NCBI GenBank assembly: GCA_944390125.1
Contig: CALXOX010000001.1
Coordinates: 120,427 to 184,426, forward strand
Direction of reading: 5' to 3'
DNA: 64,000 nucleotides
Origin: an uncultured Alphaproteobacteria bacterium
GTDB lineage: Bacteria > Pseudomonadota > Alphaproteobacteria > Rs-D84
Positions 63,001-64,000 of the stretch are shown in pieces. Position numbers: made by a program. The first letter of the stretch is position 1; each line of letters opens with the position of its first letter.

Positions 63001-64000
63001 ATCCGTAAAACCGTCTATTTTATAAACGGTTTCATTTTTTTGAGCATCAAACAATTTTCCATCTGGCACATCACCGGCACGCACAATATGCGCCGACGGC
63101 GGCAAAACCAATCCTGTTTTTACATCCGGCGCGAAATAAGTATCCAGCAAACTAACCTCTATCGGATTTTCATTTTTGCCAACAACATCATTAAACGGCG
63201 CCAATATTACAACAGACATATCGTTCCAATTACCACCGGAATTTGCATCAACAATATGATTCAACGTAGTATGCACCGTGGCGCGCGGAACATCGTAATT
63301 TGTCGCCATCGCAGTCGTTGGAATTGCCAAACTGCCGTCCGATAAGCGTCGTGGCATATACTTGGTTGCGTGCACCATAACCCAGTTATTCATATCAGAC
63401 ATATATTTTACCTGGGCCTGAACGTTATCTTCAAAATCTTGTAATTTTTGAATACCGGACATAAAATCTTGTACTTCTGCCATATTTTTTTTCTCGCCAA
63501 TACAAGAATTATATCACAAAAACAAAAAAAACACCAATGGTGGTTTTAATTCCTGGTCGGAGTGACTGGGCTGCTGCGCCACCTGGGCTCGTTCGCGCGT
63601 AACGCGCTTCACCGGCGCCCTGCCGTTCGCCTCTCGCCTGCGGTTCGAACCGCTTACTTCGCTGGTTCGCCCCCAGTCAAAAAAAATACCACCAACGGTG
63701 GCAAATTCTGGTCGGAGTGACTGGGTTCGAACCAGCGACCTCTACGTCCCGAACGTAGCGCTCTACCAGGCTGAGCTACACTCCGAATAATCAGTAATAA
63801 AGCAGCCGGATTATGCAACCATACTAACAAAAAATCAACTGTTTTTATTTGCTATTTTGCTTTTACAACCTATATATTATTTGTAATACTTTTTCTATTT
63901 ATACATAAAGGGGAAACTATGTTTGCTTTGAAATTTCTGAAGAAAGATAAGTTTGATAGTTATGATGATTATATTCAGAATGGGGCCCCAATAGTTCCAG

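What the first reader, a model, noticed from the sequence alone, without database searches (positions are those of the whole stretch)
63554..63785. tRNA-Pro 3' end directly repeated 138 bp away across a strongly GC-rich insert (att-like scar or miniature element)
The last 17 nt of tRNA-Pro(CGG) (tggtcggagtgactggg on the plus strand) recur at 63554..63570. Short matching flanks (attc) accompany both copies, which is the hallmark of integrase-mediated insertion at a tRNA 3' end. The enclosed 138 bp is GC-rich in an AT-rich genome and carries repeated gcgaac and ggttcgaacc motifs. It could be a decayed island remnant, a tiny mobile element, or a foreign-origin RNA gene.
Basis: seen in the sequence. 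Interest (0 to 1): 0.5.

Follow-up and report, generated by a model that had tools for sequence, protein, structure and literature searches.

The report
Gene-less 155-bp insert behind tRNA-Pro
A real 155-base, GC-rich, gene-less piece of DNA sits right behind an intact proline tRNA gene in a small-genome gut bacterium, flanked by a repeat of the tRNA's tail. Sister species lack it, so it is a small insertion scar or miniature mobile element, modestly interesting rather than a new kind of system.

Summary
The last 17 nt of tRNA-Pro(CGG) (63709-63725) recur exactly at 63554-63570, 18 nt counting the next base. The 138 nt between are 62% GC, and the core is 68% GC against 39% for the window.

Read on the tRNA strand, the order is: tRNA, terminator 1, an inverted copy of the tRNA T-arm, GC-rich core, copied tRNA 3' end, terminator 2, then the promoter of the next gene.

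Two related Ca. Enterousia species carry clean empty sites: tRNA, one terminator, promoter. The window's terminator 2 matches the native terminator of one of them. So a 155-bp unit was inserted at the tRNA 3' end, and the old 3' end and terminator were displaced.

The unit is 100% identical in a second species whose flanks are only about 78% identical. It crossed species by recombination, so its invariance does not argue for function.

A distant relative has an unrelated insert with the same architecture at the same tRNA, and its own empty-site relative.

The unit has no Rfam, tRNA, protein, phage or plasmid match, no second copy in the sequence held, and no integrase alongside.

The best reading is a miniature or decayed tRNA-att insertion. 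A palindrome-driven local duplication is nearly as likely. Interest is modest.

The parts
63709..63785 (-). Intact tRNA-Pro(CGG) with encoded CCA. Its last 17 nt (63709-63725) are repeat copy 1 (attL-like).
   Evidence: ARAGORN; Rfam RF00005 at 64.9 bits; identical in all Enterousia loci compared.
63810..63838 (-). Promoter-like site for the tRNA (TTGATT, 17-nt spacer, CATAAT).
   Evidence: Consensus scan only.
63681..63708 (-). Terminator 1: spacer, GCCACC/GGTGGT hairpin and T8. It is part of the inserted unit and now terminates the tRNA.
   Evidence: Terminator scan, hairpin at 63703-63687. Absent from the empty sites. Invariant in all occupied loci.
63659..63679 (-). Inverted copy of the tRNA T-arm plus the first acceptor bases (19 of 21 complementary to 63718-63738). 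This is the 5' end of the GC-rich core on the tRNA strand.
   Evidence: the repeat finder pair I1.
63571..63680 (-). GC-rich core (110 nt, 68% GC) of unknown origin. It contains the perfect palindrome GCGGTTCGAACCGC (63640-63653) and three GTTCGC hexamers.
   Evidence: No Rfam, tRNA, protein or DNA match.
63554..63570 (-). Repeat copy 2 (attR-like): the displaced original 3' end of the tRNA (last T-loop base, T-stem, acceptor strand, ACCA).
   Evidence: Exact 17-mer. The sequence that follows it is the native terminator type of the L011 empty site.
63523..63553 (-). Terminator 2: the displaced native terminator. It is weakened by a G-to-T change in the stem relative to L011.
   Evidence: The terminator scan does not call it.
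63554..63708 (-). The 155-bp inserted unit as a whole. Because of the repeat, 63571-63725 is an equivalent description.
   Evidence: Absent from L011 and from L021, L023-L026. 155/155 identical in L003 and L008.
63508..63518 (-). Extended -10 promoter (TGTGATATAAT) of the downstream 432-aa gene. It is not part of the insert and marks the right-hand native flank.
   Evidence: Read from the sequence. The element or a close variant is present in L006, L010, L011, L021, L023 and L004.

Best explanation
**What it is.** A 155-bp module with no gene was inserted at the 3' end of tRNA-Pro(CGG) in a Ca. Enterousia genome (order Rs-D84, reduced-genome gut Alphaproteobacteria).

**How it is laid out.** The junctions lie within the last 17-18 nt of the tRNA, from the final T-loop base through CCA.
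- The module supplies a replacement 3' end and its own terminator, so the tRNA gene stays intact.
- The original 3' end and original terminator are pushed 155 bp downstream, where they are decaying.

**Most likely origin.** This is the footprint of recombination at a tRNA attachment site. The module would be a miniature, non-autonomous integrative element or the collapsed remnant of one: attL, a short P' arm carrying terminator 1, a P arm (the GC core), then attR. It has since been passed between Enterousia species.

**Shown.**
- The insertion, its exact boundaries and the empty sites.
- Retention of the native terminator distal to the second repeat copy.
- 100% identity of the unit in two species whose flanks are about 78% identical.
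- A second, independent insert at the same tRNA in a distant relative.

**Inferred.** That a tyrosine-type recombinase acting in trans made the junctions, and that the unit was once part of something larger. No present-day function is demonstrated.

**How sure.** The insertion itself is about 0.97 certain. The stated confidence refers to the integrative-element mechanism.
For: **Repeat position.**
- The exact 17/18-nt direct repeat is the tRNA 3' end. It starts at the T-loop/T-stem boundary.
- Classical tRNA-island att repeats of 19-23 bp running through CCA lie in the same place (PMC11537424, read).

**Empty sites.** L011 and L021, L023-L026 have tRNA, one terminator, then the promoter.

**Different terminators on the two sides.**
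- In the window, terminator 1 is the type carried by the unit.
- Terminator 2 matches the native L011 terminator.
- This is the attL/attR pattern expected when an incoming element restores the tRNA end.

**Cross-species identity.**
- The unit is 155/155 identical between the window's species and the L003 group.
- The AMP-binding gene is 78% identical, the upstream intergenic region 69%, terminator 2 68% and yceG 82%.

**Composition.** The core is 68% GC against 39% for the window.

**Independent second case.**
- L006 has tRNA, terminator, a 118-nt hairpin, then the terminator again.
- L029 is the matching empty site with an identical tRNA.

**Past visits by integrases.** A degenerate tyrosine-integrase ORF in the same contig shows such elements have visited this lineage.
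Against: - No functional integrase is next to the insert or among the window ORFs tested.
- At 155 bp it is far below the size of any described integrative element, and it carries no cargo.
- In the L003-group species the repeat is a perfect 47-48 nt that includes the terminator. In L006 it is 76 nt at 88% identity. Repeats that run past the tRNA into local non-coding DNA look more like a local duplication.
- Terminator 1 differs by only 2 nt from that species' native terminator.
- No phage or viral contig carries the tRNA 3' end in an att-like context. The two 17-mer hits are chance matches inside coding sequence.
- The neighbouring 432-aa gene was also imported between the same two species (98% identical against 78% flanks). 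Ordinary homologous recombination with patchy repair could therefore have carried the unit across without any site-specific enzyme.
- An inverted tRNA copy about 40 nt from the junction is not a known att feature.
Confidence: 0.42

Rival explanations
1. Local rearrangement rather than a mobile element. The hairpins of the T-arm and the terminator provoked a break or a replication template switch. That duplicated the tRNA 3' end plus terminator (48-76 nt) and filled the gap with inverted or direct T-arm copies and filler DNA. The resulting indel then spread between strains and species by ordinary homologous recombination.
For: - The repeats include the whole native-type terminator: a perfect 47-48 nt in L007, L008 and L020, and 76 nt in L006.
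- In both insert types an inverted copy of the tRNA 3' part directly follows terminator 1. In L006, the tRNA end, terminator and inverted copy form a near-continuous palindrome of about 96 nt (I1; I1-I3).
- Further T-loop-like GTTCG motifs lie inside both inserts.
- No recombinase was found.
- Import by homologous recombination between the same two species is demonstrated for the adjacent gene.
Against: - About 65-85 nt of each insert has no detectable local or tRNA source.
- Parts of the unit differ unevenly from their supposed templates: 0-4% for the repeat, about 10% for the inverted T-arm, and unrecognisable for the rest. That does not fit one recent templated event.
- The window keeps a native terminator between two imported segments. 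This needs a crossover inside the 18-nt repeat or patchy heteroduplex repair.
Confidence: 0.33
2. Whatever its origin, the insert is now a small RNA gene. A structured transcript of about 125-160 nt on the tRNA strand would have a 5' end that pairs with a tRNA-like 3' end (...CACUCCGACCA), and it would end at terminator 2. It could act as a tRNA-3'-end mimic, decoy or processing substrate.
For: - The unit has its own terminator downstream.
- TGGTATTTT in terminator 1 reads as an extended -10 that would start transcription at the first base of the core (read from the sequence).
- The L006 hairpin is much more stable than shuffled sequence (z = -4.6). It is about 8 kcal/mol more stable on the tRNA strand because of G-U pairs.
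Against: - It is absent from sister species, so it is dispensable.
- The window's element folds no better than shuffles (z = -0.7 to -0.9).
- No Rfam family matches even at E <= 10.
- The apparent invariance is explained by recent shared ancestry or horizontal transfer, so there is no covariation to test.
- The two insert types share no sequence in their middles.
- The promoter scan finds no canonical promoter.
Confidence: 0.12
3. A tandem or inverted duplicate of the whole tRNA-Pro gene that has decayed into a pseudo-tRNA.
For: - The 3' end and terminator are duplicated.
- On the plus strand the insert begins with CGGAGTG (the tRNA 5' acceptor strand, by complementarity) and ends with a T-arm-like GCTGGTTCGCCCCCAGT.
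Against: - The middle shows no collinear similarity to the tRNA in either orientation beyond shuffled controls (52-393 of 500 shuffles score as well).
- ARAGORN finds only inconsistent junk even at very lax thresholds.
- The insertion post-dates the split from species with about 80-85% identical flanks. That is too recent for a copy to decay beyond recognition while its repeats remain perfect.
Confidence: 0.04
4. Assembly artefact or chance repeat.
For: Two scaffolds have runs of N at the repeat (L018, L020).
Against: - The same structure appears in separately assembled contigs from different samples and sources: the window, L001, L002, L003, L007, L008 and L019.
- The 17-mer repeat did not occur in any shuffle.
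Confidence: 0.01

Closest known systems
Genomic islands and prophages integrated at tRNA 3' ends by tyrosine (P4-type) integrases, and their decayed remnants
   Same: - Insertion at the 3' end of a tRNA gene.
- A direct repeat of 17-23 bp that is the tRNA tail through CCA, as for pheV islands (PMC11537424).
- The tRNA is restored by the incoming DNA.
- Atypical base composition, and empty sites in relatives.
   Different: - Only 155 bp, with no integrase and no cargo.
- In the probable source species the repeat runs on through the terminator (48 nt).
- It carries an inverted copy of the tRNA T-arm.
CIMEs (cis-mobilizable elements): att-flanked elements without recombination or transfer genes, mobilised in trans by a related ICE (reviewed in PMC5704250; seen only in the listing, not read in detail)
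   Same: It is bounded by att-like repeats, encodes no enzyme, and would depend on an integrase supplied in trans.
   Different: From my own knowledge, CIMEs are kilobases long and derive from recognisable ICEs. No cognate ICE or integrase is known here.
Small palindromic intergenic repeats and MITEs (Rickettsia palindromic elements, ERIC, Correia elements); comparison from general knowledge
   Same: Size of 100-160 bp, an imperfect hairpin with terminal inverted repeats, an intergenic position next to terminators, and a host that is an alphaproteobacterium with a reduced genome.
   Different: - Those families are multi-copy and make short or no target duplications.
- This unit is single-copy in the sequence held, and the repeat is 17-76 nt.
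- Its inverted ends are copies of the target tRNA itself.
Casposons integrated in tRNA 3' ends (PMC4779613)
   Same: Terminal inverted repeats plus a target duplication that includes the 3'-distal part of a tRNA gene, with an empty/occupied polymorphism.
   Different: Casposons are kilobases long and encode Cas1 and a polymerase. From my own knowledge their target duplications are about 14-15 bp. Nothing of that kind is here.

Membership tests
tRNA-integrated element (tyrosine-integrase island or prophage) | Direct repeat formed by the tRNA 3' end at both junctions, with an intact tRNA at one end | tested here: met
   Exact 17/18-nt repeat. The tRNA scores 64.9 bits.
tRNA-integrated element (tyrosine-integrase island or prophage) | Empty site (uninterrupted attB) in related genomes | tested here: met
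   L011, L021, L023-L026 and L029.
tRNA-integrated element (tyrosine-integrase island or prophage) | Integrase gene inside the element, next to the tRNA | tested here: not met
   The insert has no credible ORF. The nearest integrase-like ORF is 3.6 kb away on the 5' side and lacks the catalytic domain.
tRNA-integrated element (tyrosine-integrase island or prophage) | Excision to a circle and regeneration of attB | not testable with these tools
   This needs raw reads or experiments.
CIME / non-autonomous att-flanked element | att sites at both ends and no recombination genes | tested here: inconclusive
   Repeats are present and genes are absent, but the repeats have not been shown to be functional att sites.
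CIME / non-autonomous att-flanked element | A cognate autonomous element or integrase using the same att site in the same hosts | tested here: inconclusive
   None was found in the window, the loci or the viral contigs.
MITE / palindromic repeat family (RPE, ERIC, Correia) | Many dispersed copies per genome | tested here: not met
   Only one copy in the 64-kb window plus the fetched loci, about 205 kb in all. The rest of the genome was not searched.
MITE / palindromic repeat family (RPE, ERIC, Correia) | Terminal inverted repeats with a short fixed target duplication | tested here: not met
   Inverted ends are 8 bp (window) or 17-18 nt at about 72% (L006). The flanking duplication is 17-76 nt and equals the tRNA end with or without the terminator.
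tRNA, tRNA-like or any Rfam RNA family | Covariance-model match or cloverleaf | tested here: not met
   cmscan at E <= 10 finds only the real tRNA. ARAGORN finds nothing credible even at lax settings.
Conserved structured sRNA | Compensatory base changes across homologues | not testable with these tools
   All copies of the window-type unit differ by at most 1 substitution. The L006 type is a single sequence.

The most novel reading that the evidence does not exclude
The window-type and L006-type inserts could be two members of an undescribed class of cargo-less hairpin modules of about 110-120 nt. These would home specifically to the 3' end or terminator of tRNA-Pro(CGG) in Rs-D84 Alphaproteobacteria.

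Their defining trait would be a 5' end that is the reverse complement of the target tRNA's 3' part. That end could act as a target-complementary guide. Alternatively, folded against the direct copy, it could form a hairpin att site, analogous to the folded attP of CTX phage or to integron attC sites. A host or phage recombinase would use it, or the modules might be expressed as tRNA-3'-end-mimicking RNAs.
Probability: 0.1. Interest if true: 0.7.

Novelty: new variant of a known kind. Interest (0 to 1): 0.33.

Why it matters
It is a clean, base-resolved example of how even a genome under 1 Mb with about 90% coding density (Ca. Enterousia; PMC12306168) gains and exchanges small non-coding DNA at a tRNA gene.

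The same tRNA is hit independently in two distant lineages by inserts that share an odd design: terminator, inverted tRNA end, hairpin, direct tRNA end, terminator. If that recurrence reflects a mechanism rather than coincidence, it would point one of two ways. It could be a minimal, enzyme-less integrative module, or a specific fragility of tRNA-plus-terminator palindromes.

In practical terms, the repeat breaks assemblies (L018, L020). The displaced tRNA fragment could also mislead island-finding software into calling a 155-bp 'island'.

Tried and rejected
**RNA families.** Rfam at gathering threshold on the whole window, and at E <= 10 on 63400-63900, found nothing but the tRNA.

**tRNA, tmRNA and pseudo-tRNA readings.**
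- ARAGORN at default and very lax settings, with introns allowed and in tmRNA mode, gave only inconsistent junk.
- The middle of each insert was aligned to its tRNA in both orientations and scored no better than shuffled controls.

**RNA folding.** The window element is not more stable than shuffles on either strand. Only the L006 element is.

**Homology between the two insert types.** None beyond GGTTCGA.

**Other copies.** blastn-short of both inserts against the window and all fetched loci found only this locus.

**Other tRNAs.** tRNA-Gln in the window, two tRNA-Ser in L004 and tRNA-Gln in L005 show no such repeat.

**Foreign sources.**
- Plasmid and phage collections gave only chance hits or nothing.
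- Four exact-pattern scans of viral contigs found nothing.
- The 17-mer scan gave two chance hits inside coding DNA.

**Captured coding fragment.** The stop-free 52-aa plus-strand ORF has no homologue among 5.8 billion proteins.

**Integrase hunt.**
- Ten mid-size window ORFs are housekeeping or unknown.
- The L001 integrase-like ORF is catalytically dead.

**Conservation as evidence of function.** I first took the 100% identity across loci as constraint. I withdrew this when one search showed that five of the loci are one species, and that the window's copy arrived by inter-species recombination.

**Retron reading.** Rejected because the downstream gene has no Pfam hit of any kind, so no RT domain, and it is present at the empty sites too.

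**Searches that added little.** The metagenome protein scan gave only 4 loci, and L031 lacked the tRNA.

Full report
**Observation**

tRNA-Pro(CGG) lies on the minus strand at 63709-63785 (ARAGORN; Rfam 64.9 bits). Its last 17 nt, TGGTCGGAGTGACTGGG on the plus strand, occur exactly twice in the window, at 63709-63725 and 63554-63570. No shuffle of the window gave two matches even with two mismatches allowed. Identity extends to 18 nt.

The 138 nt between the copies are 62% GC. The 110-nt core (63571-63680) is 68% GC in a 39% GC window, and it includes the GC-richest 100 nt of the 64 kb.

**Anatomy on the tRNA strand**

Reading the minus strand 5' to 3':
- the tRNA
- terminator 1: spacer, GCCACC/GGTGGT hairpin and T8 (63708-63681)
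- an inverted copy of the tRNA T-arm plus three acceptor bases (63679-63659; 19 of 21)
- a short spacer and the perfect palindrome GCGGTTCGAACCGC (63653-63640)
- about 65 nt of GC-rich sequence with two more CGAAC motifs
- the direct copy of the tRNA 3' end (63570-63554)
- terminator 2 (63553-63523)
- the extended -10 promoter TGTGATATAAT (63518-63508) and the start of a 432-aa gene (63483)

The direct repeat is really about 48 nt, covering the tRNA end plus terminator, at 77% identity in this genome (D1).

**Whose genome**

The neighbouring protein places the window in Candidatus Enterousia. This is an uncultured gut lineage of the alphaproteobacterial order Rs-D84, with genomes under 1 Mb (PMC12306168).

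**Occupied and empty sites**

I used the neighbouring 432-aa gene as an anchor. The same tRNA-insert-gene arrangement appears in L001, L002, L003, L007, L008, L018, L019 and L020.

Two other Enterousia lineages have the identical tRNA followed directly by a single terminator and the same promoter. These are L011 and L021, L023-L026. They are clean empty sites.

The two empty sites carry different native terminators, and each type recurs as terminator 2 in an occupied genome:
- L011's native terminator (GGAATTAAAACCACCATTGGTGG...) is the terminator 2 of the window.
- L021's native hairpin (GCCACCGTGGGTGGTG) is the terminator 2 of L003, L018 and L019.

Terminator 1 is invariant wherever the insert is present. 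So the inserted unit is 155 bp: terminator 1, core and one copy of the 17-mer. The distal 17-mer with terminator 2 is the displaced original end of the tRNA locus. In the window that old terminator has lost a stem G-C pair relative to L011.

**How many independent observations**

The 100% identity of the unit first looked like constraint. Wider flank comparison corrected that.
- L003, L007, L008, L019 and L020 are one species, with about 99% identity in the AMP-binding and yceG flanks.
- The window (which equals L001) is a different species. Its flanks are 77-82% identical to the L003 group and its upstream intergenic region is 69% identical.
- It is about as far from the L003 group as the empty-site species L011 and L021 are.

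Even so, the tRNA plus unit is 100% identical to the L003 group, and the adjacent 432-aa gene is 98% identical. Between those two segments the window keeps about 30 nt of L011-type terminator and its own RBS variant.

The unit and the gene therefore crossed a species boundary by recombination. The unit's right-hand boundary falls exactly at the 18-nt repeat. Terminator 1 differs by 2 nt from the L003 group's native-type terminator, which suggests the unit arose in or near that species. In L007, L008 and L020 the two repeats are a perfect 47-48 nt. The gene tree groups the occupied loci, but it is distorted by this transfer.

**A second, unrelated insert at the same tRNA**

L006 is a yak-rumen alphaproteobacterium whose neighbouring protein is 34% identical and whose synteny is the same. 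It has tRNA-Pro(CGG), a terminator, a 118-nt element and then the same terminator again.
- The direct repeat is 76 nt at 88%, with a perfect 45-nt block.
- The element starts with an inverted copy of the last 25 nt of the tRNA (20 of 25), followed by a GGTTCGA hairpin.
- It ends with a diverged direct copy of the tRNA end.
- The tRNA end, terminator and inverted copy form a near-continuous palindrome of about 96 nt (I1-I3).
- It folds far better than shuffled sequence (z = -4.6) and about 8 kcal/mol better on the tRNA strand.

Its relative L029 (58% protein identity, identical tRNA) is an empty site. The middles of the two insert types share nothing significant with each other or with the tRNA beyond GGTTCGA(ACC). 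Two independent events at the same tRNA thus produced the same layout.

**What it is not**
- It matches no Rfam family even at E <= 10.
- It is not a tRNA, tmRNA or recognisable pseudo-tRNA.
- It has no credible ORF, and the stop-free 52-aa frame has no homologue.
- It has no other copy in the roughly 205 kb of window and loci held.
- It has no match in the plasmid, phage or viral-contig collections.
- No integrase lies beside it. The nearest integrase-like ORF (L001 5060-6058) lacks the catalytic domain and sits on the 5' side of the tRNA.
- The window element does not fold better than shuffles.

**Mechanism**

Two explanations of origin remain close.

(a) *Recombination at a tRNA att site.* The repeat starts at the T-loop/T-stem boundary and runs through CCA, as in classical tRNA islands (19-23 bp for pheV; PMC11537424). 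The incoming DNA restores the tRNA and supplies its own terminator. In the window the two sides carry different terminators. The unit is foreign in composition and identical across species with divergent flanks. On this reading it is a miniature, non-autonomous integrative element or a collapsed remnant, moved by an integrase in trans or by homologous recombination.

(b) *A local, palindrome-driven duplication.* In the probable source species and in L006, the repeat extends through the native terminator and beyond. An inverted tRNA copy abuts the terminator and T-loop-like motifs recur inside. No enzyme is found, and homologous recombination between these species is demonstrated for the next gene. 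Against (b), most of the core has no local template, and the parts differ unevenly from their supposed sources.

I put (a) at about 0.42 and (b) at about 0.33. A present-day role as a small RNA is possible as an overlay (about 0.12) but has no positive evidence in this genome.

**Comparison with known systems, and novelty**

It works like a tRNA-att insertion, but it fails the membership tests that need an integrase, cargo or demonstrated excision. It resembles CIMEs in lacking genes, and MITE/RPE-type palindromic repeats in size and shape. It fails their multi-copy and short-target-duplication criteria.

I class it as a new variant of a known kind: an unusually small, cargo-less tRNA-end insertion. 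Its design recurs and is unexplained, with the inverted copy of the target next to the junction.

Interest is modest (0.33). The more exciting reading, a family of target-complementary hairpin modules homing to tRNA-Pro, is not excluded but has low probability (about 0.1).

Noticed in passing
window 62185-63483 (-): A 432-aa protein with no Pfam, NCBIfam or PDB match. In two searches all 40-80 homologues had no Pfam domain, and the few named ones were hypothetical proteins of uncultured Alphaproteobacteria. It is 98% nt identical between two species whose flanks are about 78% identical. Within one species it shows mosaic patches of 82-90% identity (L019, L020), so it is a recombination hot spot. 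Tandem paralogues occur in L027.
   Followed up: partly
window 63508-63518 (-); also L006 about 3830-3850, L010 about 540-555, L004 about 3965-3980: The extended -10 promoter TGTGATATAAT(T) in front of the 432-aa gene is kept almost letter for letter in relatives whose protein is only 30-35% identical. That is unusually strong promoter conservation.
   Followed up: no
L001 5060-6058 (+), about 3.6 kb beyond the window end, on the 5' side of tRNA-Pro: A 332-aa integrase-like ORF with Arm-DNA-bind_3 and Phage_int_M domains. It has no catalytic domain and no recognisable box II or tyrosine, so it is a dead or domesticated tyrosine recombinase. It lies between lepA and acpP-fabF.
   Followed up: partly
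window 63530-63547 (terminator 2): The displaced native terminator has a G-to-T change that removes a stem G-C pair relative to the L011 empty site (GGTGG to GGTGT). This is consistent with decay now that terminator 1 does the work.
   Followed up: partly
L018 1627-1726; L020 about 1809-1813: Scaffold gaps (runs of N) fall exactly at the tRNA-end/terminator repeat, and L018 contains a duplicated partial tRNA. The 48-nt repeat breaks short-read assemblies.
   Followed up: no
window 63591, 63625, 63665 (+), and 63642: Three of the window's nine GTTCGC hexamers, plus GGTTCGAACC, lie inside the 110-nt core at spacings of 34, 18 and 22 nt. These are T-loop-like half-sites that could be protein-binding sites or serial T-arm copies.
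   Followed up: partly
window 7141-8331 (-): A 396-aa AAA_21 / AbiEii-like ATPase (Pfam 4e-29), a possible defence-system component in an otherwise housekeeping region.
   Followed up: no
window 58412-60847 (-): Three consecutive signal-peptide proteins of 192-257 aa. Only one has a weak OMP beta-barrel hit and the others have no Pfam match. This cluster of lineage-specific outer-membrane paralogues is conserved downstream in L001, L006 and L011.
   Followed up: no
L005 3560-3900: A non-coding, hairpin-rich stretch of about 350 nt lies upstream of the homologous gene in a genome that lacks tRNA-Pro at this position. It was not analysed.
   Followed up: no
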